Below, piece by piece: positions 3,813 to 41,360 of a DNA stretch of 61,990 nucleotides; within the stretch, counting starts at the first letter, position 1; every line of letters begins with the position of its first letter. Under the pieces are notes generated by a model. That model made no database searches and was not told the origin of the DNA. It saw only the letters and a list, made by a program, of their open reading frames with translations. A program made the translations under genes and the position numbers. Location of the stretch: UHGV virus genome UHGV-0106586; one strand, written 5' to 3'. Source of the DNA: a virus.

Positions 3813-4508
3813 TCAATGTTTAACTAACATGGTTTTAATGTGTGGAAGGATTCTATTTACCTTCTGAACATTCTTCTCTGTATCTTCTATAAAGCATACT
3901 ATATTAAAGTAAGGAAGAATGCAAGACTGAATCATCCTAACTTTTAAACTTTCTGCACTTATAGAGTTAGTTCCAAAACCACGCATAAAAAGCAAGTAAC
4001 CATGCTCTATATTGTGCCTTAAAAACATCTCAGTAGGTATTCTCTGAGATTCACCTCTTGCTGTCAAGAGTCCAACTGCTGCATGATTTGCAATTGCATC
4101 AATAATGTTGAAAACATATGTTGGCTTTGCTCTTACAGAATCAAGAAGATTAGTGTACTGTGAGAATGACCCATCAGTCAATTCCGTTGAACAATCTTCG
4201 TGATTAAAATTTGTGAGAACCCCATCAATATCTGCTAAGATGAGATTCCCTTTTTCTACAAGGTCTTTATTGACTATGACTAAGCTATCACGACTTACGC
4301 CTATAGATTGTCCAGTCTCTTTGTCCACAACGTTCACAATTGGTTCTGATGTGTGGAACTCTTCAAGTGAACATACAACTTCTCTTGCAGTGTCTTCAAA
4401 ATCCCTGCACTGTTCTGGAGTCCATACACAGGAATCAAGACCTAACTCATGAGGATGCGAGTCATAAGCATGGCACAGTACTTCATCAGACTTTCTTAAT
4501 TTTTTCAT
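3813..4508 (-). CDS. HAD-superfamily phosphatase, possible 5'(3')-deoxyribonucleotidase
   Basis: LILADIDGVLTNF matches HAD motif I (DxDGx); phage nucleotidase context. Confidence 0.5.
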   Translation of the reverse strand: MKKLRKSDEVLCHAYDSHPHELGLDSCVWTPEQCRDFEDTAREVVCSLEEFHTSEPIVNVVDKETGQSIGVSRDSLVIVNKDLVEKGNLILADIDGVLTNFNHEDCSTELTDGSFSQYTNLLDSVRAKPTYVFNIIDAIANHAAVGLLTARGESQRIPTEMFLRHNIEHGYLLFMRGFGTNSISAESLKVRMIQSCILPYFNIVCFIEDTEKNVQKVNRILPHIKTMLVKH

Positions 4509-5034
4509 GATTTACCTTAGAAATGTTTGTTGCAAATTCACATTGAGCGATAACTTTCATATTGTTATAGACATCTTGAGAGTATTTCTTAGCTTTAGGG
4601 ATTTTGTACGAATACCCAGCATTATATGATGCTAAAACTTTTTGTAAAGTCTTCTTTGATTTTGGCTGACCATGTACCTTTGTCCAAAACTCAAGCTCTT
4701 TATGTGTTTCTTTTGCGGCATAATCAAAATCCTTTAAGAGTTTCTTTTTAGCCACATTAGGACTGATTTTGTTACGCTTTACAACAGTCTTCAAGTGATT
4801 CTGGAAAATACCATAGTCATGGGTCTTTTTATTCTCTACCTTCAGACCTAACTCTGACTCTTGTAAGGCTATAGCTGCTAGAGTGATACCCCAACCTTTG
4901 CCCATATTATCCTCACCATACTGGTAAGCTTTTAACATGTTTACTTTTTGGCTAATTGATAGCTCTGGGCAGTCAACTGCATAAGATAAGTGTGCTGTAA
5001 ACATTAAGCACAAACCTAGAATCAACTTCTTCAT
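4486..5034 (-). CDS. secreted lytic transglycosylase-like protein (SLT family) with N-terminal signal peptide
   Basis: Signal MKKLILGLCLMFTAHLSYA; ALQESELG...YGIFQ and YNAG motifs resemble the SLT catalytic region. Confidence 0.5.
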   Translation of the reverse strand: MKKLILGLCLMFTAHLSYAVDCPELSISQKVNMLKAYQYGEDNMGKGWGITLAAIALQESELGLKVENKKTHDYGIFQNHLKTVVKRNKISPNVAKKKLLKDFDYAAKETHKELEFWTKVHGQPKSKKTLQKVLASYNAGYSYKIPKAKKYSQDVYNNMKVIAQCEFATNISKVNHEKIKKV

Positions 5035-5097
5035 TGGTTCTCCTGTTTAGTTTATCGTGACAACAATTATACAGCACTCTGCACAAAATACAAATAA

Positions 5098-5122
5098 AAA
5101 AGGCCGCCGAAGCAGCCTTTTA
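5098..5122 (-). terminator. hairpin terminator downstream of rIIB
   Basis: aggccgc-cgaa-gcagcct stem-loop with flanking A/T runs. Confidence 0.45.
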
Positions 5123-5134
5123 AGAAATTACTTA

Positions 5135-9265: not shown

Positions 9266-11047
9266 TTAAAGCTGCTTGTCAATATTATTTCGAATATCAC
9301 CAAGAGTTGTGTAGCCGAACTGCTCAGAGTCGCTAAAGACTAGACGTAAAGCACAAGCTGGATGTTCAAGTGCATCTGCAAAGCTCTGGAACCCATAGCC
9401 ATCTACAGCTTTCAGGTTTTCACCATCCCACATAGGTGCTACACCACCAAAAGCAGACTTCTTAACACCACTATCTGTTTTAGGGTCTTTTGCAAGCATA
9501 ATCTCTTTACCACCAATGCTTGCAAGAGTTGCTTTGACAGCAAATGCAAAGGTGTCACGAGTCATGTACTGGTAAGTGTAAGAACCTACACCAAACACTA
9601 CGTTAGAGCTTGCAAAACCCATTTCATACAAACGCTTCAGTATTTCGTTTGCACGTTCCAACGTGATAGAATCACCATAGATAAGGCCAATGTGCTCATC
9701 CAGTACCTTAAAACCTTTAGAGTTGATAGTCCCTCCAAAGATGTTATACAGGGTCTTAATAGCCCCATCAATCTCTGCTACAGGACGTGTTACAACGTTT
9801 GCAGAACCAACCATATAAGCATTTTTCAACATCACTGTATCAGCAACTTCAAAGTCTTCTCTGTCAACAACCATCTCGTAGCCTTCTGACAGTAGCCATC
9901 CAGCAATACCATAATTGATGTTTTCAAGCTTCATGTTCAGAACAGCATTCAACATTGTGTCGCTGGCTTCCAGCTTGCTTAAGTGTTCGTAATAAGCCTT
10001 TTTAGCACACTCTAAATGGATTGCTTTGTATCCTGTGACAATATGTACAGGGTCTCCAGAATCAGGACGAATTACCAGTTTGCCATCACGTCCCATAATC
10101 TCTTTACGGAGTTCTGGCAATATGACTGATACAGTTCTCCAGAAGTTATAAGTATCTGAAACAACACTTGCAATACCAGTTGGGTAAGTTTCTGTTAAGA
10201 AGCGACGGAAGGTTTGTAACTCACCTTTAAAACGTCTTTCATCTTCAATCAATTCATTACCACCTTCCCAAGCAATGTTTGCACACATTACAGAGTGTTC
10301 AGTGGCTGGTACAGAACTACCAATATCAGAGATTGGGTAGGACTGTCCATAGATGCGTTTAGCTGTATATACAGCAGGGAAGCTATCAGTCCCTTTAAAG
10401 CTGGTTAAGTGACCTACAGCATTAAATGCGTCATCAGTAAAGCCAGACATACCACGCATAGCAAAGTCATGGCACTGATAAGGTAAATGTAAGTCGTTGT
10501 CACAAGTAAGGTCAGCCCATTTCTTACAGATACGTTTGTAGTGCAATGCGATAGTTGCAATGGTACAAGCCTTCCAAATCTCAGCAGAGAAAGCATCTTC
10601 CAGATACCCCGCTACCCAATGGAAACCTGAAACAGTGTTCTGGAAGACAATCATTGGTACACGCATAGGGACAACTGTGCCTTCTTCTACAGCGTATACT
10701 TCAACTGGCAGATAACCTAAGTCGTGAAGTGCTTCCCAATGCTCTCGACCAATAGCATCTTTACCCAGAACACCGTTCATGACTTCTAAGATTTCATCAA
10801 TTGCTTCTTTTTTGTCACGTTCGAAGAAGGTGGCGTTCCAGTGGTCTATCAGGTAATCTTTAACAAAACGTTGAATACCAAAAGCCACTACACCGTCAAT
10901 TGCTAAGGGGCTGTTAAACCATTTGTCACTACGTGGTGTTAGGTTGAACATCAAGTACTCTGTTGCGCTAGGATACTGGTAGATGTGACCAGATTTGTAA
11001 GCATCTGCATTTAAACCTGCTGGTACTGCATAAAGTGATTTAGTCAT
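9266..11047 (-). CDS. nadV: nicotinamide phosphoribosyltransferase (NAMPT)-like enzyme, 593 aa, longer than typical ~470-500 aa NAMPT
   Basis: Full-length NAMPT-type fold judged from translation; adjacent to a PRPP-synthetase-like gene; exact substrate (PRPP vs ADPR-PP) not decidable by eye. Confidence 0.8.
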   Translation of the reverse strand: MTKSLYAVPAGLNADAYKSGHIYQYPSATEYLMFNLTPRSDKWFNSPLAIDGVVAFGIQRFVKDYLIDHWNATFFERDKKEAIDEILEVMNGVLGKDAIGREHWEALHDLGYLPVEVYAVEEGTVVPMRVPMIVFQNTVSGFHWVAGYLEDAFSAEIWKACTIATIALHYKRICKKWADLTCDNDLHLPYQCHDFAMRGMSGFTDDAFNAVGHLTSFKGTDSFPAVYTAKRIYGQSYPISDIGSSVPATEHSVMCANIAWEGGNELIEDERRFKGELQTFRRFLTETYPTGIASVVSDTYNFWRTVSVILPELRKEIMGRDGKLVIRPDSGDPVHIVTGYKAIHLECAKKAYYEHLSKLEASDTMLNAVLNMKLENINYGIAGWLLSEGYEMVVDREDFEVADTVMLKNAYMVGSANVVTRPVAEIDGAIKTLYNIFGGTINSKGFKVLDEHIGLIYGDSITLERANEILKRLYEMGFASSNVVFGVGSYTYQYMTRDTFAFAVKATLASIGGKEIMLAKDPKTDSGVKKSAFGGVAPMWDGENLKAVDGYGFQSFADALEHPACALRLVFSDSEQFGYTTLGDIRNNIDKQL

Positions 11048-11092: not shown

Positions 11093-11974
11093 TTAATCAA
11101 GGTTTGCTACAGTAACTTGACCATAATGTGTTAAACCACGTTCTTTAGCTTCCCCTAAAGAGTTTGTAGTGTAGATGTGGTCAATGCCATTGTCAAGAAG
11201 GTTTTCAACACCTTTGGAAAAGATACCATGTGTTACATAGAGTTCTACACGTTTTGCACCTGCTTCACGAAGATGTTTAGCTGCTTCTATGAAGGTTCGA
11301 CCACCATCACAGATATCATCAAGAATCATAACAGTTTTATCTGTCAAATCAACATCATCAAGGATTCGCATACCAGTAATTTCACCAGTCTTAAGGTTAC
11401 GTACTTTAGACATTGTGATGTATGGCTTATCCACCTCTTTAGCAGTCTCTGCAATCTTCTTAGCAGCACCTGCATCTGGGGCTACTAAGTAATCAATCAG
11501 TGGGTCATTTGCATAGTGGACTGCAATTTCCTTTTGAGGAATACTCTGGAAGCAGTTAAACAGGTTATCTGGTACATAGCTGTGAGGGTCAACTGCACAG
11601 ACTGCATCAAAACCCATTGCATTAACCTGTTGTGCAAACACTTTCAAAGCTGCTGCATCACCTTTAAACATGTGACGGTCATAACGTGCATTTGGCAAAT
11701 AGTAAAAGATAATGGTCTTCATAGCAAACTTATGAGGTACTAAATCATCAATTGCCTCTTTAGCAAGTGCCACAGCAAACAATGTGTCTTTATCATAACC
11801 TTTTACAATCATAATCACATTGTTGATGGATGATGCTGCATAAGCAGTAAAATCAACAAACTCTGGCGAAAAGTGCCCACCAATCTCACCAGAAGGAAAT
11901 TGGATGATGTTAAACTCTTCTTCATGAGTTCCTTTAGTCGGTGAATGAACTGTAACACGGATAGATGTTTTCAT
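11093..11974 (-). CDS. ribose-phosphate pyrophosphokinase (PRPP synthetase)-like enzyme; start taken at ATG 11974
   Basis: YLPNARYDR (cf ARQDR), DPH (cf DLH), VAPDAGAAKK and VMILDDICDGGRT (PRPP/phosphoribosyl-binding loop) match the Prs family as recalled. Confidence 0.75.
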   Translation of the reverse strand: MKTSIRVTVHSPTKGTHEEEFNIIQFPSGEIGGHFSPEFVDFTAYAASSINNVIMIVKGYDKDTLFAVALAKEAIDDLVPHKFAMKTIIFYYLPNARYDRHMFKGDAAALKVFAQQVNAMGFDAVCAVDPHSYVPDNLFNCFQSIPQKEIAVHYANDPLIDYLVAPDAGAAKKIAETAKEVDKPYITMSKVRNLKTGEITGMRILDDVDLTDKTVMILDDICDGGRTFIEAAKHLREAGAKRVELYVTHGIFSKGVENLLDNGIDHIYTTNSLGEAKERGLTHYGQVTVANLD

Positions 11975-13419: not shown

Positions 13420-13776
13420 TTAAAGTTTAATACAGAACTTATGAAGTTCTTCTTCAGTGATTCCTATTGGAGTTACACCTTCTCTGATGTTTTGAATCCT
13501 GTAGAAGTCTCCAAATTTGTCTGATTCATGGATGACAAATGTAACGTTCTTCACCATCGTTGCAAGGGCACATAATGAACGTTCGCCAAACTTTTCTCTT
13601 GTGTAAATCATCCAAGCATCTAACTTGTTAATGTCGTAAGTCCACTTACCAGAATAATCATTCTGCTCGCCATTGACAATCACCTTGCCATCCATACTCT
13701 TTTCTCCAGATGTTTTGGTTATCAGAACCACGATATGGTTTAACTGTTGGTTTAGAAGAATCATACTTACCATCAA
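13420..13776 (-). CDS. hypothetical protein; start uncertain (track start overlaps nrdG by 119 nt; internal starts at ~13695 or ~13611 possible)
   Basis: ORF in track; overlap with nrdG noted. Confidence 0.3.
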   Translation of the reverse strand: MMVSMILLNQQLNHIVVLITKTSGEKSMDGKVIVNGEQNDYSGKWTYDINKLDAWMIYTREKFGERSLCALATMVKNVTFVIHESDKFGDFYRIQNIREGVTPIGITEEELHKFCIKL

Positions 13777-14143
13777 TCACCACGTCAACATATTTCATCA
13801 CATCTAAGTGGATTTTTTCGTGCAGTTGAAAACCTGTCCAAAGCCATATAGACTTTTCTGGATAAACAGTTTTAATACGCTTGCATATGTTGGTGACCTC
13901 TCGAATGTTTCTGTCATCCAGAGGCTCCCCACCAAGTATTGACAGCCCACTGATAGCCTTATCATTCATTAACTTAATGATGCCGTAGAGGTTTGCATAA
14001 GTAAACTCTTTACCAGCATTAAACTTCCAAGACTCCCTGTTAAAGCAACCTTCACAGTGATGTTTACAGCCAGCTACGAAGAGGCTTACACGAACCCCTT
14101 CACCATTAGCTGTGTCAAATGGTCTAATCTCCATGTAATTCAT
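13658..14143 (-). CDS. nrdG: anaerobic ribonucleotide reductase activating protein (radical SAM)
   Basis: FVAGCKHHCEGCFN is the CxxxCxxC radical-SAM cluster motif; size ~160 aa typical of NrdG. Confidence 0.8.
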   Translation of the reverse strand: MNYMEIRPFDTANGEGVRVSLFVAGCKHHCEGCFNRESWKFNAGKEFTYANLYGIIKLMNDKAISGLSILGGEPLDDRNIREVTNICKRIKTVYPEKSIWLWTGFQLHEKIHLDVMKYVDVVIDGKYDSSKPTVKPYRGSDNQNIWRKEYGWQGDCQWRAE

Positions 14144-14924: not shown

Positions 14925-15872
14925 TTACATAGAAATCCTGTCACGAATCTCAGCAATTTTTGCATCATTCATTCGGGATTCACCTTTAATCTTAGTCCAC
15001 CCAAGATACCCACACACTCTGTTAATCACAGAGATGTCATGTGAATGGCAAACCTCACATTCTTCAACATCAGCCTTTGGTCTGTTGCCACAATGTTCGC
15101 AGATTGCTAAGTCAAAGTTAAGTCCCTGATAGAAACCTTTCAACATCCCTCTTGTAATACAACTTTTAAGTGCTGTTAAGTTTTCTGGGTTAGCTACCCT
15201 TACATACTGGATTCTGCCGCCTCTACAGATATGGAAGAATGGTTCTTCTAAGTCCTGCTTCTCAAATGGTGAAATATCTGCTGCAACATTCATATGGAAA
15301 CTGTTTGTAAAGTATTCCTTATCAGAAACACCTTTGATAACGCCAAACATATCTCTGAACTGTTTTAGTTGAGTCCCACAAAGTGATTCTGCTGGAGTAC
15401 CATAGACGGCATATAAGAAGCCATCTTCATTCTTAAACTCTTCAGTTTTCATGTTAATGTATGCCAGAACATCGTATGCAAAACTATAGCTTCCAACTTC
15501 ATGAAGTCGTTTACCCTCAGCAAGAACAGACAACTCATCAAGAGCAGTAACCCCAAAAGAAGCTGTGAAGGACTTCACGATATCCCAACCAACCTTGTCA
15601 GTAGGTTTCTTAGTCCCTTTGTACAGACCACCTTGTGTGAATGCAAGAGGGTTAGAACTTGCTGGCATATTAGCAATCATTTCGTAGCGTTTCTTGTGGA
15701 AGCTGCGAATCATCTCTAGGTACTTATCAAGCTCTTTCCAGAAATCTAAACCATTCTCTTTAGAATACTGGTAAATCATTGGCAAGTTCAAAGATACAGC
15801 ACCAATGTTAGCACGACCTACATAAAACTCTTCACCATCTTCGTTATGATATGGTGATAAAAACGCTCTACA
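14925..15872 (-). CDS. nrdD: anaerobic ribonucleoside-triphosphate reductase, C-terminal exon (inferred exon 2)
   Basis: RVCGYLG glycyl-radical motif and CEHCG...C zinc-ribbon near C-terminus; open frame extends upstream of any start codon to 15893. Confidence 0.7.
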   Translation of the reverse strand, partial: CRAFLSPYHNEDGEEFYVGRANIGAVSLNLPMIYQYSKENGLDFWKELDKYLEMIRSFHKKRYEMIANMPASSNPLAFTQGGLYKGTKKPTDKVGWDIVKSFTASFGVTALDELSVLAEGKRLHEVGSYSFAYDVLAYINMKTEEFKNEDGFLYAVYGTPAESLCGTQLKQFRDMFGVIKGVSDKEYFTNSFHMNVAADISPFEKQDLEEPFFHICRGGRIQYVRVANPENLTALKSCITRGMLKGFYQGLNFDLAICEHCGNRPKADVEECEVCHSHDISVINRVCGYLGWTKIKGESRMNDAKIAEIRDRISM

Positions 15873-16614
15873 CTTATTGTTCAGGTAAGTTCGCTACGCT
15901 TACCCCGCTTTATTCAAGCTGCTTACTGTCACCAGTAAGTCCAGACTATATCTTCTACTTATTTCTAAGTAGCGTACCATTTCGAGTCGCTTGACCCTAC
16001 ACCGCTACATTCATCACGGTTAGTCGTTCGGCATTTAAATGTACTCAAAATCATGTTCAAAGTTATTATACTCTTTTACACCCTTCAATATTGAAGAGAT
16101 AGTCTTGCGATTATACCCAAGTACATTAGATAACTCTCGTATTGACTTAGCAACAATAACTTCTTTTGTCACTTTATGTGTAGCCTTCACAGCATATGAA
16201 CGCTTACAAAACTTGTAGCAACCATTTTCATAACCCTCTTTAACATTCTCAGAATGAGTTCCCCATTCTAAGTTAGAAGCATGGTTGTTCAGTTTGTTAT
16301 CATCTTTGTGTTTTACAATTGGAAGATTGTTAGGGTTAGGTACATACTTTTCAGCAACTAACCTATGGACATACATGTCACGATTCTTCCTTCCATAAAA
16401 CCTTACTTTCATATAACCAGTGTTGGATTTCCACTGCGTAAGTTCTACACCATTTTTCCTAAAGACTCTTCCGTCCTCAGTAACATGATAATTTGGCATG
16501 TAATACTCCTATTTTATATAGTTTCTTACATCGTACATCATTTAGCACAGGATTGTCTACACCTGTAGAGTTTCCCTGTTTAGGCACGTTTTAGATGAGC
16601 TATAGAGCTTGTTA
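15873..16614 (-). mobile_element. probable group I intron interrupting nrdD (boundaries inferred), carrying an HNH homing endonuclease ORF
   Basis: nrdD frame broken by stop right after ...ISPMG and resumes at CRAFLSP...; inferred intron ends in G; possible P1 guide GCUCAU near its 5' end; 7-bp stem with GTGA tetraloop in 3' part. Confidence 0.5.
16035..16499 (-). CDS. HNH homing endonuclease (intron-encoded)
   Basis: VHRLVAEKY...VKHKDDNKLNNHASNLEWGTHSEN is a classic HNH motif. Confidence 0.75.
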   Translation of the reverse strand: MPNYHVTEDGRVFRKNGVELTQWKSNTGYMKVRFYGRKNRDMYVHRLVAEKYVPNPNNLPIVKHKDDNKLNNHASNLEWGTHSENVKEGYENGCYKFCKRSYAVKATHKVTKEVIVAKSIRELSNVLGYNRKTISSILKGVKEYNNFEHDFEYI

Positions 16615-17811
16615 ACCCATCGGTGAAATTACCTTGCCAGAACGCTCAAAAGCTTCTGCTACAGCACCATGACCAGATACACTTAAGAAATCTGGATACA
16701 TTGCTTTAGAGCAACACTCAATAGCTTTACTGTACAGGTGTCCTTGACAGATATTTTCATCATGTCTCTTCTGGTCATAAATATAAACCAGTTTAGGAAA
16801 TACAACAGGTTTTTTGCTCTTACCTTGTCCATTCATACGAACATCTAGGAGAGTGCTTGCAATCATGTACTGTAGTCGGTTATCTTCATTAGACATGTCT
16901 GAGTCAAGTAAACCAAATGTTAAAGTTGTGAATGCAAAATCACCACGGCTACAGGGTACTGTATTTAGTTTCATCTCTAGTGACTGGAAGCCTTGAGTTA
17001 ATTCAATCTGTAGCTGCTCCATGACATAATTATGGTAATGTTCTTTAGGAATACCGTAAGATGCTGCTTTCTCAGCATGATAGCGTAGAGACTTCTTAGC
17101 ATACGGTACAAGCACCTTATCAATCTCCGCTAAAGTAAATCCACCAAATTGCTGTGCAGTTGCTGAAAGAACTACATCACCGATAACTTGTAAGGCTGAC
17201 AGTACAGACTTCGGTTCACAGTATTCGATGCCAGACATTTCAAAGCCACCTTTCAGTACTTTACCAATGTCAAACAGGCAACAGTTGATACCACCAAAAA
17301 TTAGGTCTCTTAAGTCATGGATGTAGATAAACCCTTTTTCAATGGCTTCGAGTTCCTCTGGTGTTAAATGGTACTGCTTAAAGATTTCTTTAGTCAGATA
17401 ACCACGAATAATTGAACCTTTTGTAGAAATTAAACTGCTGTCAAAGTTAGCGTTTTCACGGTCGCCTAAGAAGAGTGTATCTTTGGTCTTCTGGTATAGT
17501 TCATCCCAATTTTGAGCAACTTCTTTACGGTAATTTCTATATGTTGAGTAAGACTCATAAATCTCGTGATTGACTTCTGCCAAAGCACCCTCAACAATAC
17601 TGTGAATATCGTTTACAGAAATTAGCAAATTATTCTGCTTAGTGGACTTTACCAGAATCCTCATAAATGCTGACTCAAGAGCTTGAGTAACATCTGGTGG
17701 AAGCTCTTTATAACCAACTCTGTTAGCTGACTTTGTGACGGCTGCTAAAACTTTTTTGATATCGGGTTCTTCAAGTGAGCCGTTCTTTTTAATAATCTGT
17801 ACTTTGTTCAT
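16615..17811 (-). CDS. nrdD: anaerobic ribonucleoside-triphosphate reductase, N-terminal exon (inferred exon 1)
   Basis: N-terminal ATP-cone-like region (IIKKNGSLEEPDIKKV), class III RNR-like body; frame ends ...KVISPMG then stop. Confidence 0.75.
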
Positions 17812-17859: not shown

Positions 17860-18066
17860 TTAAATCTTTTTAGAAAACTTCGCAAAGAGTTCTCTTAGTT
17901 TTTCAGTTATACCTAACTGTATCTCTAATATTTCGAAGATAACCCATAGTAACATGGCTCCAAACAATGAACCTTGCTCAAAGTCAGTAAATAGGTTAAC
18001 AATAAGCATACCAATCACAATAGCTGGTGCATCAACAACCAAACCTTCCCAAATGCGTTTAAGCAT
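17860..18066 (-). CDS. small membrane protein (68 aa)
   Basis: ORF in track; hydrophobic VVDAPAIVIGMLIVNLF segment. Confidence 0.35.
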   Translation of the reverse strand: MLKRIWEGLVVDAPAIVIGMLIVNLFTDFEQGSLFGAMLLWVIFEILEIQLGITEKLRELFAKFSKKI

Positions 18067-18301
18067 TATTCACCTCTGCCATAAAATTCTGTAGCGTCCC
18101 AACAGGTTTTAGGTTTTGTCCATCAGTTTTCATGATGAACGGCATCTGACGAACTGGCATCTGTGCAATATCCGTCAGGTCTGATAGTTCATAGTCCTGC
18201 CCTAACATTCTCACAATATGGTCAATACCACGAGCTTTTGCAAAATTCTTTGCAGTCTCACATTGAGGGCATCCAGTTTTGGAGTAAATTACATAAGTCA
18301 T
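18059..18301 (-). CDS. glutaredoxin/NrdH-like redoxin
   Basis: CPQC active-site motif near N-terminus; ~80 aa; sits beside nrdB. Confidence 0.6.
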   Translation of the reverse strand: MTYVIYSKTGCPQCETAKNFAKARGIDHIVRMLGQDYELSDLTDIAQMPVRQMPFIMKTDGQNLKPVGTLQNFMAEVNNA

Positions 18302-19374
18302 TAAGGAACCTCTAAAAATCCACTATTCAAATCATCTACAACAGTATTCAACAGGTACGCACCGTTCTGTTGCTCCTGATTAGCATTCTGCTCTTTATCA
18401 ATTTCCATCTTCTTAATCATGTACTTCAAAGGTGGTTCTTTAGGAGCTACAAAATCTCTGGGAATGCCAAACATATCATACAGTGGGGCAGCATTATAGT
18501 AAACCCACTCATGAAGAAGCTTTGTATTTAATCCAACTACAGCACGTCCTTCGGAGAAGATATAATACGACCATTTCTCTTCACTTTCAACTACTTCATC
18601 TAAGATTACTTTAATCTCTGGAAGAATTTGTTGAAAAGCTTTCTGCCACTCATCATCTCTTAAAGTTTCTTTTAAAACTTCAATATCAATTTTAGTGTGA
18701 AGGATTTCGTCAAGCATAATTTTCTGTACCGCTTGAGCAATACCCTGAAATTTATCTTGAGCATCAAGTGCAAAAGTACATGCAAAGGATGCCATAAAAG
18801 ATATACCTTCAAGTGCAGTCACTGCAAACAGCCCTTTCAGAATCACTTTATGGAAGTGTAAAGGGTCTTTGTCCAGAAGTGAGTCGCGCACATAACTCAG
18901 GCGATAGTTTATACCTTCATCCAGTAATTCTTCAAGAACACGATTCACAGTTTTTAATCGGTCTTGTACAGCAACATTCTGGTTAATCTCATCTAAGATT
19001 GTTTCAGGGTTTTTAATACATTGCCTTACAATCTCTGAGTAAGTAAGAGCATGTAGGTTTTCAATCTCAGACTGCTTCATAATTGCAGTTGCATAGATGT
19101 CATCAGAGATAAATGGTGCAAAGGCAAATGCCAAACTCTTAGCAACTTGAGTATCTGCTTCCCACTGCCACTTAAGAATCTCAAGCATTACACCTGACAT
19201 TGATGCTGGAACACTCTCAAAATCAAGACGTGATTGTTCAAAAGGGAACTCATCTTCTGACCAATCTTGTGCTTTTTGTTGTTTATAAAGCTCAAAGATT
19301 TTTGGGTAGTGTTTATTAAGTGAGTCAAAAGTTTTTCTCTCACCACCTAAAAAGATTGGGTGCTGGTTAATCAT
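18301..19374 (-). CDS. nrdB: ribonucleotide reductase class Ia small subunit; start taken at ATG 19374, which overlaps the upstream stop (ATGA)
   Basis: N-terminus aligns with E. coli NrdB as recalled; size ~357 aa; adjacent to nrdA. Confidence 0.8.
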   Translation of the reverse strand: MINQHPIFLGGERKTFDSLNKHYPKIFELYKQQKAQDWSEDEFPFEQSRLDFESVPASMSGVMLEILKWQWEADTQVAKSLAFAFAPFISDDIYATAIMKQSEIENLHALTYSEIVRQCIKNPETILDEINQNVAVQDRLKTVNRVLEELLDEGINYRLSYVRDSLLDKDPLHFHKVILKGLFAVTALEGISFMASFACTFALDAQDKFQGIAQAVQKIMLDEILHTKIDIEVLKETLRDDEWQKAFQQILPEIKVILDEVVESEEKWSYYIFSEGRAVVGLNTKLLHEWVYYNAAPLYDMFGIPRDFVAPKEPPLKYMIKKMEIDKEQNANQEQQNGAYLLNTVVDDLNSGFLEVP

Positions 19375-22305: not shown

Positions 22306-22630
22306 GGTATTTCTCCAAGTTTCTTTTTAGATATAACCAACCATAGTCAGTTCTTTCTACACCCATGAAGAGTGGAGCCATTACAACTTTACCAAAAGTA
22401 TTCCTGTGTTGACAGATTTCAAAAGAATACTCTTTCTCAATATCAATCCCATATTTGTACAGGACTGCTTTTAAAACTTGTTCATTATCCAGAAGTGTAT
22501 CTGGAGTCTCACCATACTTCTCAAGTAACGGGTCATTCATAAACACCGTCATAGAGATATTGTAGTTTGAGAAGTGGCTCTTCTGAGCCACACCTTCTTT
22601 ATTAATGTTCTGTGAATCCATTATAACCAA
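22298..22630 (-). CDS. hypothetical protein (110 aa)
   Basis: ORF in track. Confidence 0.4.
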   Translation of the reverse strand: MVIMDSQNINKEGVAQKSHFSNYNISMTVFMNDPLLEKYGETPDTLLDNEQVLKAVLYKYGIDIEKEYSFEICQHRNTFGKVVMAPLFMGVERTDYGWLYLKRNLEKYRV

Positions 22631-23357
22631 CCCCTTTTAACCAGCACTTCAGGTTATTAGCATCATAATTCAGTTTCGGGTATGAGGTTACATGGAACTG
22701 CTCACCATCGTAGTAGACAATATCTGCAATCCATAGTCCATTCTCTTTACAGAAATCTTTATCTGCTTTAGAGGTAATTGGATTAACTTCTACAAAACCA
22801 TCTACACCCAAATCCTTTAAGCTACCTACAATACCTTTGCAGATAACGCATGTCTCAGATACTACCACAAAAAGTTCTTGGCTTTCAAGTTCTACAATGT
22901 ATTCACCAAGTTGTACTTTAGGGAGATTTGATTGCTTCATAATCTTCCCATCGGCTGCACGGACAATCGCATACCACTCTTTACCATCAACCACTGACAT
23001 TCTGATGATACACTCTTGACCAGTACGCTTCTCAATATCTGCAAGACGTTTTAAAGCTTCTTCATAGTCATCTGTGTACTTCAGGTCATTATTATGGCAA
23101 ACAGCTTTCATAGCACCGTTATGGTCATGTTGTGACAGATAAATCAGACCATCAAGAACATATTGCAAATCTGCCTGAGCATCCAGTGTCTCAATGGGGT
23201 CTTTTTCTTCAATTGCTTTTACAAGCTCTTTTGCTTCTTCAAGCATACACAGAGACTGGGATTTTAAAGATTCCCAATACTCATCACTGTAAGGTTGCTT
23301 TTGAGTGTTTCCACAACGAAGATTCCAGTTTTTTACTGCTTCTCTTGAGTTAAACAT
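22602..23357 (-). CDS. MazG-like nucleoside triphosphate pyrophosphohydrolase N-terminal domain fused to unknown C-terminal domain
   Basis: LEEAKELVKAIEEKD...DAQADLQYVL resembles the MazG EExxE metal-binding motif. Confidence 0.45.
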   Translation of the reverse strand: MFNSREAVKNWNLRCGNTQKQPYSDEYWESLKSQSLCMLEEAKELVKAIEEKDPIETLDAQADLQYVLDGLIYLSQHDHNGAMKAVCHNNDLKYTDDYEEALKRLADIEKRTGQECIIRMSVVDGKEWYAIVRAADGKIMKQSNLPKVQLGEYIVELESQELFVVVSETCVICKGIVGSLKDLGVDGFVEVNPITSKADKDFCKENGLWIADIVYYDGEQFHVTSYPKLNYDANNLKCWLKGVGYNGFTEH

Positions 23358-29204: not shown

Positions 29205-29948
29205 TTAAACTTTAATGATGGCTCTTAGCTTGTTCTCAAGGTCTGCAAGAGTACCATTATTATGAATAATGTCACGCTCATATTTTGTAGAAATCCCATT
29301 TTCTGAAACATGTGATGAAACTTTGTCCACATTGTCTCTTTTTACTTCAATAGTTTGGTGTGCAAATCTACTCAGCCATTCAGCTTCAGAGTCAAATCTT
29401 AAATCACTGATTAAGACAAAACCATATTGATTTCTAAGTGAGCACATTTCATGGAATCTAACCATTCTTTTTTCAAGGTCTTTAGACCAGAACTTGTCGC
29501 CCATTACCTTACGGACAACTTCAGTACCCCAAATTTGTTGAATTTGTCTTGATGAGAATTTATACTTTTTACTAAATCCCAGACGTGTTAGTATGGTAGG
29601 TTTAGCAACCTTCTTAAGCTCCATGATTAATCGTCCGGTTAACTCTGACATAAGCTTGAAGTCCATATGATAACGTTCATCTCTGAAGGTGAACTCCATA
29701 GCTTCCGTAACTTTAAACATCAGTTCATGATATGATAAGTCAAATACCTGTGGAGTCTCTTTAGTTTCACCATACAGGTCATTCCAAGTCAGGTCAAATA
29801 TCTTTGATGCAGACATTTTAAGGTTGTCTGCAAAGGCCATTACAGCAACATTGTAGCCGTACTCATCCTCTAAGATGTTCTTCACAATAGAACATGAGGT
29901 GTCTTTTCCAGAGCGTGCCTTTCCAGTAAATGCGATAATATTACTCAT
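29205..29948 (-). CDS. deoxynucleoside monophosphate kinase (T4 gp1-like)
   Basis: P-loop IIAFTGKARSGKDT closely resembles the T4 dNMP kinase N-terminus as recalled. Confidence 0.65.
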   Translation of the reverse strand: MSNIIAFTGKARSGKDTSCSIVKNILEDEYGYNVAVMAFADNLKMSASKIFDLTWNDLYGETKETPQVFDLSYHELMFKVTEAMEFTFRDERYHMDFKLMSELTGRLIMELKKVAKPTILTRLGFSKKYKFSSRQIQQIWGTEVVRKVMGDKFWSKDLEKRMVRFHEMCSLRNQYGFVLISDLRFDSEAEWLSRFAHQTIEVKRDNVDKVSSHVSENGISTKYERDIIHNNGTLADLENKLRAIIKV

Positions 29949-39141: not shown

Positions 39142-39657
39142 ATGATTGATATCTACTTACAAGATGCTCATGCAGATTTCCTTAAGGAAATGCTTAAAAA
39201 GTTTATGGCTTCACAGTATGAGAATGAAGCATCTTTTAAAATAGTCACATGTGGCGACGAAGCTGGTTTTGTTGAGATTGAGCATGAAGGTACTGGAAAG
39301 ACTGTTTGTAAGTTACCTGATAGCATGTTCTCTAGCACATTCTTAGCAAAGACTATCATAAATGTTAAGCTTGTACCTCAGATTGAAACATACTCTGGTA
39401 CAGATTACCCTAAAGGTTTTAAGTCACTGATGAAGTACTTCTTAGATGACTTTGTGAGCAATCTTCTGCGAGAGGTAAAAGAAAGTCGTACAGTGTTGAC
39501 TGTAGAGAATATGGGAGGCACTATTAGGGTTACTTCTGACTGCTTTGTTATGAACCTCTTCGACTTCGTTCCTAAGAACTTTGATGGTATTCTGGATGAA
39601 GAGGATGACTGTGTAGACTTTATATTGGTTCTTGAACCAGTTTTTGAGGTTAAATAA
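39142..39657 (+). CDS. hypothetical protein (171 aa)
   Basis: ORF in track. Confidence 0.45.
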   Translation: MIDIYLQDAHADFLKEMLKKFMASQYENEASFKIVTCGDEAGFVEIEHEGTGKTVCKLPDSMFSSTFLAKTIINVKLVPQIETYSGTDYPKGFKSLMKYFLDDFVSNLLREVKESRTVLTVENMGGTIRVTSDCFVMNLFDFVPKNFDGILDEEDDCVDFILVLEPVFEVK

Positions 39658-39921
39658 ATGAAAATTGAACACTGCTATGAGTCTGATGGAACACCTATCC
39701 GATGTCCACATTGTGGGTGTACAGACTTACAAGGCGAGGTAAGTGAAATAGTCAACGGTCATATTGCTGAAGAGAGTACAAGGTGTACAGGATGTAATGA
39801 AATCATTGCTTTCTGGGCTTATGGTTTATACCAGCCTACACCACACTTAATCTACCATAGCAATAAAGCTGTGAAGAATGTTATTAACTGGTTCATTAAG
39901 AAAGGATTTACAAATGATTAA
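39658..39921 (+). CDS. small zinc-ribbon-like protein (CPHCGC...CTGCN)
   Basis: Two CxxC pairs. Confidence 0.4.
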   Translation: MKIEHCYESDGTPIRCPHCGCTDLQGEVSEIVNGHIAEESTRCTGCNEIIAFWAYGLYQPTPHLIYHSNKAVKNVINWFIKKGFTND

Positions 39922-40459
39922 ATTAATCTTTGCAAGTGGTGAAAATGGGGAGTTTGGTACTCCAACTGGTATGCCGTGGCCTCGACATAAACAGGACATG
40001 CAAGAGTTTAAGAGACTCACTAAAAATAACTTAGTAGTGATGGGTAATGAAACTTTCAAGACTCTGGGAAGTAAACCTTTACCAGAACGTGCAAACCTCA
40101 TCTTAACAAACTCTGTACCATATTTAGGCATAGATTTTGGCAAAGATGATGTAATGTATGCTAAGGCCAGCAAAGAATCCTTTGGAGCATTTTTGAACTA
40201 TCTTGATAGCTCTATTGATGAAGATGTATTTGTAATTGGTGGTGCAGGTGTCCTTGTCAATGCTTTACCGTATGCTGGTGTAGTTTTCCATACAGTTTTC
40301 CATAAAGTTACTGAAGAGGCCACTGTGCATTTACCTTTTGAAAACTTCTTTGAGAAGCTGTATGATAACCGTGTATTTACAAAGGTACAGTCAAAACCAT
40401 CAGAGGATGGTAAAGCAACCTTTGAAATTTATGTTCCACAAGTAAAAGGACACTTTTGA
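39914..40459 (+). CDS. folA: dihydrofolate reductase
   Basis: MIKLIFASGENGEFG...MPW...VVMGNETFKTLG...PLPERANLILT follows the DHFR N-terminal pattern; directly upstream of thymidylate synthase. Confidence 0.75.
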   Translation: MIKLIFASGENGEFGTPTGMPWPRHKQDMQEFKRLTKNNLVVMGNETFKTLGSKPLPERANLILTNSVPYLGIDFGKDDVMYAKASKESFGAFLNYLDSSIDEDVFVIGGAGVLVNALPYAGVVFHTVFHKVTEEATVHLPFENFFEKLYDNRVFTKVQSKPSEDGKATFEIYVPQVKGHF

Positions 40460-40460
40460 T

Positions 40461-41360
40461 ATGTCACAAGCAGATACAAGTTACAAAAATATCCTGAACC
40501 ATGTTTTATCAGTCGGTGAACTGCGTACTACACGAACTGGAGATGTTATCTCTGCATTTGCTCCACCACAATTTCGTTTTGATATGAGAACTGGTTTCCC
40601 ACTATTAACATCTAAACAGGTGTTTACACGGCAAGTTATTGGGGAAGCTTTATGGTTCCTGAACGGTGAGAATAAACTGGGTGAACTCCGTTACCGTACT
40701 TGGGGTGAAAATGACGGAGAACGTTGGACAATCTGGTCAGATGATTTCAAACGCTGGTTAAGCTCTAATTATTCTTCTGAACAAGATTGGTTAGAAGATG
40801 CAGGTGGGAGAATCTACGGAGTTCAGTGGAGAAACTTTGAAGGTCATAATGGTTGTGTTGTAGACCAGTTAGATACCTTAGTAACGAAGATGAAGGGTGA
40901 TATCACAGACCGTTACATGCTTGTTAATGCTTGGAATGCAGCAGATATTGCAGCTAACTCAATGGCTTTAGCACCTTGTCATGTTCTGTTTCAGATTTAT
41001 ATCACTAACGAGGGTGAAGTTGACTTACAATGGTATCAGCGTTCTGTAGACACCTTTTTAGGACTTCCCTTTAACATTGCATCTTATGGCTTTATTCTGG
41101 AAGTTCTTTGTAAGATGACTGGATACACTCCACGGTACTTGATAGGTGTTTTTGGAGATACCCAGATTTATCAGAACCATATGAAGCAGGTTTATGAACT
41201 GATGAACAATGAAGAGTTCCATGCACCAACTTTTGAGATTGGTATCCCACTTAACACTTTAAGTGACTTAAAACATCTCACTGCAAGTGACTTTATTGGT
41301 GGTATTAACAATTACCAACATGCAGGAAAGATTGAAGCACCTTTGTCAGTAGGTAAATAA
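40461..41360 (+). CDS. thyA: thymidylate synthase (ThyA family; a dUMP-modifying hydroxymethylase variant cannot be excluded by eye)
   Basis: MALAPCH (catalytic Cys), QRSVDTFLGLPFNIASY, GDTQIYQNH and C-terminal ...APLSVGK align with E. coli ThyA as recalled. Confidence 0.8.
   Translation: MSQADTSYKNILNHVLSVGELRTTRTGDVISAFAPPQFRFDMRTGFPLLTSKQVFTRQVIGEALWFLNGENKLGELRYRTWGENDGERWTIWSDDFKRWLSSNYSSEQDWLEDAGGRIYGVQWRNFEGHNGCVVDQLDTLVTKMKGDITDRYMLVNAWNAADIAANSMALAPCHVLFQIYITNEGEVDLQWYQRSVDTFLGLPFNIASYGFILEVLCKMTGYTPRYLIGVFGDTQIYQNHMKQVYELMNNEEFHAPTFEIGIPLNTLSDLKHLTASDFIGGINNYQHAGKIEAPLSVGK

What the first reader, a model, noticed from the sequence alone, without database searches (positions are those of the whole stretch)
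3813..41360. Unusually complete nucleotide-metabolism complement
The window encodes aerobic (nrdAB) and anaerobic (nrdDG) ribonucleotide reductases, a glutaredoxin-like redoxin, thymidylate synthase, DHFR, dNMP kinase, a HAD-type nucleotidase and a MazG-like pyrophosphohydrolase with an extra C-terminal domain. This implies strong investment in dNTP supply under both aerobic and anaerobic conditions, as expected for an enteric host. The MazG fusion and the insertion in ThyA (LSSNYSSEQDWLEDAG) are the less standard parts.
Basis: partly seen in the sequence, partly recalled or inferred. Interest (0 to 1): 0.3.

Follow-up and report, generated by a model that had tools for sequence, protein, structure and literature searches.

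The report
Standard Felix O1-type phage nucleotide genes
The window is part of a Felix O1-like (Felixounavirus) phage genome, and the listed nucleotide-metabolism genes are real but are the ordinary, already published gene set of this phage group, with a normal thymidylate synthase rather than a base-modifying enzyme.

Summary
The genes are there. HMM scans confirm nrdA, nrdB, a CPQC glutaredoxin, nrdD, nrdG, a MazG-like pyrophosphohydrolase, dNMP kinase, DHFR and ThyA at the stated places. The window is a Felixounavirus, about 94-95% identical to many GenBank genomes. The Felix O1 genome paper (2010) listed the same complement, which is a subset of phage T4's, so it is not unusually complete. 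Corrections: (1) nrdD is split by a 742-nt group I intron carrying an HNH endonuclease, at the catalytic-cysteine codon. (2) The 'HAD nucleotidase' resembles the T4 Pnkp 3'-phosphatase domain, without a kinase. (3) The extra MazG domain is a CxxC glutaredoxin/thioredoxin-fold module, and this fusion is confined to a small phage lineage. (4) The ThyA 'insertion' lies in a loop that also varies in T4 and phiEa21-4 TS. ThyA passes the curated TS model, three hydroxymethylases fail it, and relative Bas63 is restriction-sensitive. Verdict: already known, low interest. Only the MazG-glutaredoxin fusion remains uncharacterised.

The parts
3813..4508 (-). HAD-superfamily phosphatase of the PNKP 3'-phosphatase type. 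It has an extra N-terminal domain of about 85 aa and no kinase domain. Public records label it 'polynucleotide kinase'.
   Evidence: No Pfam or NCBIfam hit. PHROG 3970 and 415 'polynucleotide kinase'. Invariant HAD motifs DIDGV (93), LTARG (148), IEDT (207). AF2 model pLDDT 87. Best Foldseek matches are the T4 Pnkp phosphatase, 5uj0 TMt 0.80, and Pnkp1. Homologue P0026 passes PF25109 HAD_PNKP. 97.8% identical to Bas63 gp87.
9266..11047 (-). [quoted passage not shown] Annotated in databases as NAMPT/NadV.
   Evidence: Pfam NAPRTase and NAMPT_N. 97.6% identical to Bas63 gp80, which was tested by deletion. E=8e-128 to the SpbetaL1 Namat structure 9w5w, against about 1e-40 to human NAMPT.
11093..11974 (-). 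Adps (ADP-ribose pyrophosphokinase, Prs-like), the first enzyme of NARP1. The mechanical ORF extends to 11992; the likely start is the ATG at 11974.
   Evidence: Pfam Pribosyltran and Pribosyl_synth. 79.8% identical to Bas63 gp79. Adjacent to Namat, as in 97% of Adps-clade genes. Start position from the Bas63 annotation.
13658..14143 (-). NrdG, the radical-SAM activase of the anaerobic RNR.
   Evidence: Pfam Fer4_12 E=1e-43 and Radical_SAM. CKHHCEGC cluster motif at residue 26.
14925..15872 (-). nrdD exon 2 (residues 400-714). It starts with the catalytic Cys codon and contains the glycyl-radical motif RVCGYLG.
   Evidence: Pfam NRDD and Gly_radical. In-silico splice. Gap-free alignment to PDB 9d3x and 1h78. 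Collinear with Felix O1 nrdD nt 1198-2145.
15873..16614 (-). Group I intron (742 nt) in nrdD.
   Evidence: Rfam Intron_gpI hits on both sides of the ORF, 38.6 bits (E=6e-8) and 17.7 bits, both below the gathering score of 50. The exon ends in U and the intron ends in G. Clean 742-nt block relative to the uninterrupted Felix O1 nrdD. The Bas63 record annotates nrdD as a join.
16035..16499 (-). HNH homing endonuclease ORF inside the intron.
   Evidence: Pfam HNH_3, 40 bits. 95.5% identical to Bas63 gp68 'putative homing endonuclease'.
16615..17811 (-). nrdD exon 1 (residues 1-399: ATP-cone plus the N-terminal half of NrdD).
   Evidence: Pfam ATP-cone and NRDD positions 1-250..
18059..18301 (-). 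Stand-alone glutaredoxin (CPQC), the likely electron donor for NrdAB.
   Evidence: Pfam Glutaredoxin, 29 bits. PHROG 22. Sequence. The same inference was made for Felix O1.
18301..19374 (-). NrdB, class Ia RNR small subunit. The mechanical ORF extends to 19434; the likely start is the ATG at 19374, preceded by AAAGGAG.
   Evidence: Pfam Ribonuc_red_sm. 100% identical to Bas63. Start position.
19684..21918 (-). NrdA, class Ia RNR large subunit, with a C-terminal CEGC redox pair.
   Evidence: Pfam Ribonuc_red_lgC E=2e-91 and lgN. 99.6% identical to Bas63. C-terminus.
22602..23357 (-). MazG/HisE-like all-alpha NTP pyrophosphohydrolase (residues 1 to about 112), a beta-hairpin, and a C-terminal glutaredoxin/thioredoxin-fold domain (about 158-245) with an invariant C170-V-I-C173.
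   Evidence: Pfam PRA-PH. PHROG 2144. Invariant EExxE...ExxD...D and CxxC. AF2 model. Foldseek Trx/Grx matches, TMt 0.6-0.73. Homologue P0031 passes Pfam Glutaredoxin. The fusion is limited to about 6-7 cluster representatives, against more than 1000 for the N-terminal domain.
29205..29948 (-). dNMP kinase (T4 gp1-like).
   Evidence: Pfam DNMK, 77 bits. PHROG 139.
39914..40459 (+). Dihydrofolate reductase. The mechanical ORF starts at 39878; the likely start is the ATG at 39914. Its stop lies 1 nt before the ThyA start.
   Evidence: Pfam DHFR_1, 78 bits, match from residue 13. Bas63 annotation of 546 nt..
40461..41360 (+). Thymidylate synthase ThyA, with a 16-aa surface-loop insert at nt 40758-40805.
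   Evidence: Pfam 246 bits. TIGR03284 202 bits against a cut-off of 108. PDB TS hits to E=8e-49. Alignments.

Best explanation
Window 3813-41360 is the early/middle replication and nucleotide-precursor module of a Felixounavirus (Felix O1-like myovirus of Salmonella and E. coli). It works as the equivalent, well-studied T4 genes do. Class Ia RNR (NrdAB) reduces ribonucleotides when oxygen is present, probably drawing electrons from the adjacent CPQC glutaredoxin. The glycyl-radical class III RNR (NrdD, activated by NrdG) does so without oxygen. nrdD must first be repaired at the RNA level by self-splicing of a mobile group I intron. ThyA methylates dUMP to dTMP, and the DHFR gene immediately upstream recycles the dihydrofolate made by that reaction. 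The dNMP kinase phosphorylates dNMPs. Shown here: domain identities, catalytic motifs, orthology with published phages, and the exact intron boundaries. Inferred from family knowledge: the enzymatic roles and pathway flow. Three neighbouring genes are accessory. The MazG-like/glutaredoxin fusion is probably an NTP/dNTP pyrophosphohydrolase with a thiol-redox module; its substrate is unknown. The HAD protein is probably a 3'-phosphatase acting on nucleic-acid ends or 3'-nucleotides. The Prs-like/NAMPT-like pair is NARP1, which rebuilds NAD+ from ADP-ribose and nicotinamide to defeat NAD+-depleting defence systems; it does not supply DNA precursors.
For: Identity of the phage: 94-95% DNA identity over 19 kb to many Felixounavirus genomes, with 168 records covering at least 80%. 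The region is collinear with Bas63, with 80-100% protein identity for every gene. All domains were confirmed by Pfam, PHROG or NCBIfam. The Felix O1 paper lists the same complement and the glutaredoxin inference (PMC3185647). The spliced NrdD is 714 aa, 98.6% identical to the uninterrupted Felix O1 NrdD, and aligns without a gap to solved NrdD structures. ThyA scores 202 bits on TIGR03284 (cut-off 108), while T4 gp42, SPO1 gp29 and the ViI TS-like protein score 31-58. It retains R21, E58, W80, Y94, C146-H147, Q165-R166-S167, D169, N177 and Y209. DHFR and ThyA are adjacent, as in T4 and phiEa21-4. [quoted passage not shown] NARP1: Bas63 genes 79-80 were tested by deletion; identities are and the Namat structure match is.
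Against: No enzyme activity was or can be measured here. ThyA departs from the E. coli consensus at R127 (Tyr), H207 (Gln) and by two extra C-terminal residues, so its kinetics could differ. The NrdA ATP-cone match is below the Pfam cut-off (20.5 against 25.8 bits). The intron matches Rfam only below the gathering score, and splicing is inferred. The substrates of the MazG fusion and the HAD phosphatase are unknown. The RNR-containing segment is dispensable on laboratory E. coli, so 'strong investment' may matter only in natural conditions.
Confidence: 0.9

Rival explanations
1. ThyA is a dUMP (or dCMP) hydroxymethylase. Together with the dNMP kinase and the MazG-like pyrophosphatase, it would replace thymine (or cytosine) by a hydroxymethylated base in phage DNA, as in SPO1, ViI or T4.
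For: The triad of TS homologue, dNMP kinase and NTP pyrophosphohydrolase is what hydroxymethylating phages use; in ViI the three genes are adjacent. ThyA has unusual R127Y and H207Q changes and a C-terminus two residues longer. The C-terminus is known to close the TS active site for hydride transfer (family knowledge).
Against: TIGR03284 scores 202 bits (cut-off 108), against 31, 34 and 58 bits for the three hydroxymethylase controls. The protein keeps the TS-type PCH, YQRS, TIW, LPFNIASY and AP..V motifs, which all three hydroxymethylases lack, and it has Asn, not Asp, at position 177. It sits beside DHFR, which only the methylase reaction requires. No 5-hmdU DNA kinase or glucosyltransferase is annotated in the fully annotated relative Bas63. 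Bas63 is highly restriction-sensitive. No second TS gene is annotated that could make dTMP.
Confidence: 0.02
2. The MazG-glutaredoxin fusion is not a precursor-supply or pool-sanitising enzyme. Instead it acts as a counter-defence or host-takeover factor, hydrolysing a signalling or toxic nucleotide such as (p)ppGpp or a defence-system nucleotide signal, with the redoxin domain as a regulatory or targeting module.
For: The neighbourhood carries proven counter-defence genes: NARP1 and rIIA/rIIB against QatABCD. The segment is dispensable in laboratory hosts. There is no detectable similarity to the T4 gp56 dCTPase/dUTPase. The family is narrow and phage-restricted.
Against: In every diverged relative examined, the gene sits 1-3 genes upstream of nrdA, within the replication and nucleotide module. 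Glutaredoxin domains are classically RNR partners. No experimental data exist either way, and no paper describing the fusion was found.
Confidence: 0.2
3. The HAD protein is a genuine mononucleotide phosphatase (nucleotidase) that reshapes the dNMP pool, rather than a nucleic-acid end-healing enzyme.
For: HAD catalytic motifs are intact. The T4 Pnkp phosphatase is known to hydrolyse 3'-dNMPs as well as 3'-phosphorylated ends (family knowledge). No kinase domain, and no RNA ligase, is annotated in Bas63 to complete a repair pathway.
Against: The best structural matches are polynucleotide 3'-phosphatase domains (T4 Pnkp, Pnkp1 of the Rnl/Hen1 RNA-repair complex), well ahead of small-molecule HAD phosphatases. 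Homologue P0026 passes Pfam HAD_PNKP. The phage does encode a DNA ligase that needs 3'-OH ends.
Confidence: 0.3

Closest known systems
Felix O1 / Bas63 (JohannRWettstein) replication and nucleotide-metabolism module (Felixounavirus, Ounavirinae)
   Same: Same genes in the same order, at 80-100% protein identity to Bas63. The Felix O1 paper lists aerobic and anaerobic RNR, glutaredoxin, Prs, NAPRTase, DHFR, dNMP kinase and TS.
   Different: Felix O1 has an uninterrupted nrdD, whereas this phage, like Bas63, carries the 742-nt intron with the HNH gene. Adps is only 80% identical to Bas63's.
Phage T4 deoxynucleotide-synthesis genes (nrdAB, nrdC, nrdDG, frd-td, gene 1, gene 56, gene 42, cd, tk)
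   Same: Aerobic plus anaerobic RNR, an adjacent frd-td pair, a gp1-type dNMP kinase, an all-alpha NTP pyrophosphatase, introns with homing endonucleases in nucleotide-metabolism genes, and a TS with an insert in the same loop.
   Different: No dCMP hydroxymethylase, dCMP deaminase, thymidine kinase or glucosyltransferases are annotated. The MazG-like protein is not detectably similar to gp56. The nrdD intron sits at a site that T4-like phages read through uninterrupted.
NARP1 (Adps + Namat), Osterman et al. 2024
   Same: An adjacent Prs-like and NAMPT-like gene pair, orthologous to the Bas63 genes 79-80 whose deletion sensitised the phage to SIR2-HerA. Strong match to the SpbetaL1 Namat structure.
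   Different: Relative to SpbetaL1 Namat, this Namat has an insertion of about 77 aa (residues 351-427). The insertion is presumably shared with Bas63, whose protein has the same length of 593 aa and aligns end to end.
T4 polynucleotide kinase-phosphatase (Pnkp/PseT), 3'-phosphatase domain
   Same: A HAD fold with a DxDGT-type nucleophile motif. Best structural match: 5uj0, TMt 0.80, rmsd 2.7 A.
   Different: No 5'-kinase domain or P-loop. A different beta-rich N-terminal domain of about 85 aa. Only 12-19% sequence identity.
MazG/HisE-type all-alpha NTP pyrophosphohydrolases of phages, and NrdH/glutaredoxin redoxins
   Same: The EExxE...ExxD metal-binding motif and a Pfam PRA-PH hit. The C-terminal beta-alpha-beta-alpha-beta-beta-alpha fold has CxxC at the start of helix 1.
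   Different: The two modules are fused in one polypeptide. The fusion was found in only about 6-7 cluster representatives, and the four whose genomic context is known lie in Felix O1-like genomes (the window itself). No publication describing it was found.

Membership tests
Thymidylate synthase ThyA (EC 2.1.1.45) | Scores above the curated equivalog cut-off of TIGR03284, with true hydroxymethylases as negative controls | tested here: met
   Cut-off 108.35 bits. Window 202.3, E. coli 455 and phiEa21-4 230 pass. SPO1 gp29 58, ViI Vi01_060c 34 and T4 gp42 31 fail.
Thymidylate synthase ThyA (EC 2.1.1.45) | Catalytic and substrate residues (E. coli numbering): R21, E58, W80, Y94, C146, H147, Q165, R166, S167, D169, N177, Y209 | tested here: met
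   All are present in alignment A1.
Thymidylate synthase ThyA (EC 2.1.1.45) | Fully canonical phosphate/3'-OH ligands R127 and H207, and a C-terminus ending at the AP-x-x-(V/I) carboxylate | tested here: not met
   R127 is Tyr, H207 is Gln, and two extra residues (GK) follow APLSV. phiEa21-4 shares R127Y and has one extra residue. These are conserved but not strictly defining positions, and the effect on catalysis is unknown.
Thymidylate synthase ThyA (EC 2.1.1.45) | Produces dTMP plus dihydrofolate from dUMP plus CH2-THF | not testable with these tools
   Needs an enzyme assay. The adjacent DHFR gene is indirect support.
dUMP/dCMP hydroxymethylase (T4 gp42, SPO1 gp29, ViI-type dU hmt) | Hydroxymethylase-type motifs: PCN or MCT instead of PCH, NRS or MRS instead of QRS, Asp at position 177 for dCMP, a long non-TS C-terminal tail | tested here: not met
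   The window protein has the TS-type residue at each of these positions.
dUMP/dCMP hydroxymethylase (T4 gp42, SPO1 gp29, ViI-type dU hmt) | Companion genes (5-hmdU DNA kinase, glucosyltransferase) and restriction-resistant DNA | tested here: not met
   None is annotated in Bas63, although its hypothetical proteins were not all screened. The hallmark is from PMC5889632. Bas63 is 'remarkably sensitive' to RM systems.
Class Ia ribonucleotide reductase (NrdAB) | Large-subunit barrel and all-alpha domains, a ferritin-like small subunit, and a C-terminal Cys pair in NrdA | tested here: met
   Pfam. C-terminus ...YCEGCGV. The ATP-cone is weak, 20.5 bits against a cut-off of 25.8.
Class III ribonucleotide reductase (NrdD/NrdG) | NRDD domain, catalytic Cys loop, glycyl-radical motif RVCGY; NrdG with a CxxxCxxC radical-SAM cluster | tested here: met
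   Met after in-silico splicing: SPMG|CRAFL, RVCGYLG at residue 684, 714 aa, gap-free alignment to 9d3x and 1h78.
Group I self-splicing intron with homing endonuclease | Match to Rfam RF00028 at the gathering score | tested here: not met
   No hit at gathering. Two sub-threshold hits flank the ORF, 38.6 bits (E=6e-8) and 17.7 bits, against a gathering score of 50. This is expected when an ORF of about 465 nt splits the core.
Group I self-splicing intron with homing endonuclease | A precise insertion into a conserved coding site, U at the end of the 5' exon, G at the end of the intron, an internal endonuclease ORF, and presence/absence polymorphism among close relatives | tested here: met
   A clean 742-nt block relative to Felix O1 nrdD. 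Boundaries. HNH_3 ORF. Intron-less, 316-nt ORF-less and 742-nt alleles all occur in the genus.
Group I self-splicing intron with homing endonuclease | Self-splicing of the RNA | not testable with these tools
   Needs RT-PCR or in-vitro splicing.
NARP1 (Adps + Namat) | An adjacent Prs-like and NAMPT-like pair belonging to the phage Adps and Namat clades | tested here: met
   The genes are adjacent. They are 79.8% and 97.6% identical to Bas63 gp79 and gp80, which define the pathway. Namat-type structure 9w5w E=8e-128, against about 1e-40 for human NAMPT. No phylogenetic tree was built.
NARP1 (Adps + Namat) | ADPR to ADPR-PP to NAD+ activity, and rescue from NAD+-depleting defence | not testable with these tools
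   Shown for Bas63 and SpbetaL1 in the literature, not for this phage.
MazG/HisE all-alpha NTP pyrophosphohydrolase | Pfam domain above its cut-off and the EExxE...ExxD metal-binding motif | tested here: met
   PRA-PH 26.6 bits against 21.3. E40, E41, E44, E56, D59 and D63 are invariant in the family alignment.
Glutaredoxin/thioredoxin fold (C-terminal domain of the MazG fusion) | CxxC at the N-terminus of helix 1 in a beta-alpha-beta-alpha-beta-beta-alpha fold, and structural similarity to Trx/Grx | tested here: met
   Invariant C170 and C173. Topology and pLDDT of about 90. Foldseek probability 1.0 with TMt 0.6-0.73 to Grx1 (7c10), Trx-like 5zf2 and XcR50.
Glutaredoxin/thioredoxin fold (C-terminal domain of the MazG fusion) | Sequence-profile match to Pfam Glutaredoxin | tested here: inconclusive
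   The window's own domain gives no hit. The diverged family member P0031 passes only marginally, 23.5 bits against 22.9.
HAD phosphatase, PNKP 3'-phosphatase type | HAD motifs I-IV, and fold similarity to the T4 Pnkp phosphatase domain | tested here: met
   Motifs are invariant. Foldseek 2ia5, 5uj0 and 4xru at E=4e-7 to 5e-6, TMt 0.80 to 5uj0. Homologue P0026 passes PF25109. The window protein itself has no Pfam hit.
Polynucleotide kinase (the label used in public records) | A P-loop 5'-kinase domain | tested here: not met
   No kinase domain appears in Pfam or NCBIfam. No GxxxxGK[ST] motif is visible in the sequence. The structural matches cover about 155-180 alignment columns, roughly the length of the 142-residue phosphatase-only chain 5uj0.

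The most novel reading that the evidence does not exclude
The MazG-like/glutaredoxin fusion (22602-23357) is an uncharacterised redox-coupled deoxynucleotide pyrophosphohydrolase that works with the phage RNR. One possibility is that it converts dUTP or dCTP to the monophosphate that feeds ThyA, in a phage with no annotated dUTPase or dCMP deaminase. Its CxxC domain would then either reduce NrdA or gate the hydrolase by the cell's thiol redox state.
Probability: 0.2. Interest if true: 0.35.

Novelty: already known. Interest (0 to 1): 0.12.

Why it matters
As stated, the finding matters little. It re-describes the published gene content of a common, heavily sequenced phage genus used in Salmonella diagnostics and biocontrol. 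Its practical value lies in the corrections. Annotation pipelines often split nrdD into two or three 'RNR' genes because of the intron. They label a kinase-less 3'-phosphatase 'polynucleotide kinase', label NARP1 counter-defence enzymes as NAD or PRPP salvage enzymes, and leave the MazG-glutaredoxin fusion as 'hypothetical'. If that fusion proved to be a redox-linked dNTP pyrophosphatase coupled to RNR, it would add a small new element to the picture of phage dNTP-synthesis machinery.

Tried and rejected
- Rfam at gathering thresholds over the whole window gave nothing. The intron appeared only with the relaxed search.
- PDB sequence searches for the MazG fusion and the HAD protein gave no usable hit, so structure prediction plus Foldseek was needed.
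- BLASTP of the MazG fusion against T4 gp56 dCTPase/dUTPase was not significant, E=0.09.
- NCBIfam gave no hit for the HAD protein, the MazG fusion or the dNMP kinase.
- Literature searches for a MazG-glutaredoxin fusion, or for a defined role of this MazG type, found nothing relevant.
- The PhageMaP paper has no gene-level statements for Bas63 g30, g50, g59, g62 or g87 in the text, and no supplements are held.
- The genomic context of stand-alone MazG relatives was uninformative because their contigs are 1-2.5 kb.
- The context of diverged fusion copies is syntenic with this phage, so it is not independent evidence.
- I considered and rejected that the two NrdD ORFs are a natural split gene or a pseudogene. 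The junction restores the catalytic SPMGC loop exactly, and the insert has group I hallmarks.
- I considered and rejected that the nrdD intron sits at the T4 nrdD intron site. T4-like phages read through this junction. T4 itself was not individually checked.

Full report
**What the window is.** The window has about 39% G+C, no tRNA genes and tightly packed ORFs. Megablast of 3813-23000 against GenBank phages gives 94-95% identity over the full 19 kb to many Escherichia and Salmonella Felixounavirus genomes (phiWec177, SWJM-02, BPS17W1 and others). 168 records cover at least 80% of the query. The region is collinear, in reverse orientation, with the well-annotated BASEL phage Bas63 (JohannRWettstein, MZ501086). 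Every gene of the finding that lies in the Bas63 stretch compared has an orthologue at 80-100% protein identity. The other three (dNMP kinase, DHFR, ThyA) are annotated in the rest of the Bas63 genome.

**Checking the observation.** Pfam confirms the following:

- NrdA (19684-21918, minus strand)
- NrdB (18301-19434, minus)
- an 80-aa glutaredoxin (18059-18301, minus; CPQC)
- NrdD, as two ORFs
- NrdG (13658-14143, minus)
- a MazG/PRA-PH-type pyrophosphohydrolase (22602-23357, minus)
- a T4 gp1-type dNMP kinase (29205-29948, minus)
- DHFR (39878-40459, plus)
- ThyA (40461-41360, plus)

PHROGs agrees. Key motifs are present: the NrdA C-terminal CEGC, NrdG CKHHCEGC and NrdD RVCGYLG. The shorter starts used in the Bas63 record are preceded by good ribosome-binding sites, which gives NrdB 18301-19374, DHFR 39914-40459 and Adps 11093-11974.

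The word 'unusually' is not justified. The Felix O1 genome paper of 2010 lists aerobic and anaerobic RNR, glutaredoxin, Prs, NAPRTase, DHFR, dNMP kinase and TS, and already infers that the glutaredoxin serves the RNR (PMC3185647). T4 has all of these plus dCMP deaminase, thymidine kinase and dCMP hydroxymethylase. No dUTPase, dCMP deaminase or thymidine kinase is annotated anywhere in Bas63. A genome-wide knockout screen found the Bas63 segment at about 46-66 kb, which holds the RNR genes and the pyrophosphokinase, non-essential on laboratory E. coli (PMC11482910).

**nrdD is intron-split.** The two NrdD ORFs (16612-17811 and 14925-15791) flank an HNH_3 endonuclease ORF (16035-16499). A relaxed Rfam search finds Intron_gpI on both sides of that ORF, at 38.6 bits (E=6e-8) and 17.7 bits. 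Both are below the gathering score of 50, as expected for a core split by an ORF. Joining 16615 to 15872 restores ...ISPMG|CRAFLSPY..., the catalytic-cysteine loop. The exon ends in U and the intron ends in G. The 714-aa product aligns without a gap across the junction to solved NrdD structures 9d3x and 1h78. Felix O1 has an uninterrupted 2145-nt nrdD, and against it the window shows one clean 742-nt block at exactly this position. The spliced protein is 98.6% identical to Felix O1 NrdD.

The Bas63 record already annotates nrdD as a join with an internal homing endonuclease, so the intron is known. The genus shows three alleles: no intron, an ORF-less intron of about 316 nt, and the 742-nt intron with HNH. 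T4-like phages read straight through this site.

**ThyA: methylase or hydroxymethylase?** ThyA's best solved relatives are all thymidylate synthases, down to E=8e-49. It retains R21, E58, W80, Y94, C146-H147, Q165-R166-S167, D169, N177 and Y209 in E. coli numbering.

On the curated equivalog model TIGR03284 (cut-off 108 bits) the scores separate cleanly:

| Protein | Chemistry | Bits |
|---|---|---|
| E. coli ThyA | methylase | 455 |
| phiEa21-4 TS | presumed methylase | 230 |
| Window ThyA | under test | 202 |
| SPO1 gp29 | dUMP hydroxymethylase | 58 |
| ViI TS-like protein | presumed dUMP hydroxymethyltransferase | 34 |
| T4 gp42 | dCMP hydroxymethylase | 31 |

Those three share PCN or MCT, NRS or MRS, and long C-terminal tails. 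The window protein has none of these.

The 16-residue 'insertion' (aa 100-115) lies in the loop where T4 td has its own insert and phiEa21-4 has an even longer one. L. casei TS matches in two stretches around the same place. DHFR ends 1 nt before ThyA starts. The same frd-td adjacency occurs in T4 and phiEa21-4. In ViI, by contrast, the TS-like gene sits beside a dNMP kinase and an NTP pyrophosphatase. [quoted passage not shown]

Real deviations remain: R127Y (shared with phiEa21-4), H207Q and two extra C-terminal residues. Their effect is untested. I put the hydroxymethylase reading at about 2%.

**The MazG fusion.** The family alignment shows invariant EExxE...ExxD...D residues in the N-terminal half and an invariant C170-x-x-C173 in the C-terminal half. 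The AlphaFold model (pLDDT 81 overall, about 90 in the C-terminal domain) has three parts: an all-alpha domain, a beta-hairpin, and a beta-alpha-beta-alpha-beta-beta-alpha domain with the CxxC at the start of helix 1. Foldseek matches that domain to thioredoxins and glutaredoxins at probability 1.0 and TMt 0.6-0.73. A diverged family member, P0031, marginally passes Pfam Glutaredoxin on the same region.

An exhaustive profile search finds the N-terminal domain in more than 1000 cluster representatives, mostly as stand-alone proteins of about 160 aa. Only about 6-7 representatives match the full-length fusion. Diverged fusions lie 1-3 genes upstream of nrdA, but in syntenic genomes. There is no significant similarity to T4 gp56, and I found no paper describing the fusion. 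Its function is therefore inferred only: an NTP/dNTP pyrophosphohydrolase with a thiol-redox module.

**The 'HAD nucleotidase'.** There is no Pfam or NCBIfam hit, but HAD motifs I-IV are invariant. A confident model (pLDDT 87) matches best the T4 Pnkp 3'-phosphatase domain (5uj0, TMt 0.80, rmsd 2.7 A) and Pnkp1 of an RNA-repair complex. Homologue P0026 passes PF25109 HAD_PNKP. No kinase domain is present, so the public label 'polynucleotide kinase' is not supported. The substrate, whether 3'-phosphate ends or 3'-nucleotides, remains open.

ORFs 11093-11992 (Prs-like) and 9266-11047 (NAMPT-like) are 79.8% and 97.6% identical to Bas63 genes 79 and 80. Deleting those genes sensitised Bas63 to SIR2-HerA. 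The pathway they define, Adps plus Namat, rebuilds NAD+ from ADP-ribose and nicotinamide. The NAMPT-like protein matches the SpbetaL1 Namat structure 9w5w at E=8e-128, against about 1e-40 for human NAMPT. These two genes are counter-defence genes, not DNA-precursor genes.

**Verdict.** The finding re-describes a known module and is of low interest. The only element without a published description is the MazG-glutaredoxin fusion, a narrow-lineage variant of known domains.

Noticed in passing
window 993-1778 (-), just outside the finding: A 261-aa Macro-domain protein (Pfam Macro, 32 bits; DarG-like N-terminus, E=1e-12), 97.7% identical to Bas63 gp95 'putative phosphatase'. A 2026 preprint shows that Macro-domain ADPR-1''-phosphate phosphatases (Adpp) extend NARP1 against aRES defence. 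This gene lies about 7.5 kb from Namat on the same strand, not in the operon. It is a candidate Adpp-like enzyme and is untested.
   Followed up: partly
window 15873-16614 (-) and related phage records: The nrdD intron is polymorphic in the genus. There are intron-less alleles (Felix O1, LF82P2, KEP1), an ORF-less form of about 316 nt (e.g. SLAM_phiST56, BPSELC-1), and the 742-nt form with HNH (61 records). The 3' core of the intron is 83% identical to sequences in phiKZ-like Pseudomonas phages, and a core of about 41 nt is 98% identical to T4-like phages.
   Followed up: partly
window 23602-24102 (-), 24099-24623 (-), 34184-34687 (+), 12256-12771 (-): Free-standing homing-endonuclease-type genes sit among the replication genes: a SegE-like GIY-YIG, two HNH+AP2 proteins (one directly after the DNA polymerase gene), and an ORF with a weak HNH-like PHROG hit.
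   Followed up: partly
window 9266-11047 (-), Namat residues about 351-427: An insertion of about 77 aa relative to the crystallised SpbetaL1 Namat. It splits the PDB match into two stretches. Bas63 Namat has the same length. Its role is unknown.
   Followed up: no
L015 and L017 (metagenomic relatives carrying diverged MazG-Grx fusions): These more distant Felix O1-like genomes keep the order DNMK - primase/helicase - exonuclease - SegE - MazG-Grx - NrdA - NrdB - Grx - Prs-like. However, no called gene with an NRDD or radical-SAM domain lies between nrdB and the Prs-like gene, so the anaerobic RNR may not be universal in the wider group. L017 also has a D12-class methyltransferase upstream of nrdA.
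   Followed up: no
window 17860-18066 (-): A 68-aa hydrophobic ORF is conserved between the glutaredoxin gene and nrdD (98.5% identical in Bas63; 'hypothetical membrane protein' in Felix O1). A small membrane protein inside an RNR operon is unexplained.
   Followed up: no
L014 (Salmonella phage ViI) 36055-38203: In ViI, the TS-superfamily gene labelled 'thyA' scores far below the TS cut-off (34 bits against 108). It is directly followed by a dNMP kinase and an NTP pyrophosphohydrolase. This fits its being the dUMP hydroxymethyltransferase of the hypermodification pathway rather than a thymidylate synthase as annotated.
   Followed up: partly
window 5135-6244 (-) and 6324-8690 (-): These are rIIB and rIIA homologues (82% and 97% identical to Bas63 gp85 and gp84). 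PhageMaP reported that these Bas63 genes counter the QatABCD defence system. The finding's range therefore mixes precursor-supply genes with at least two counter-defence loci.
   Followed up: no
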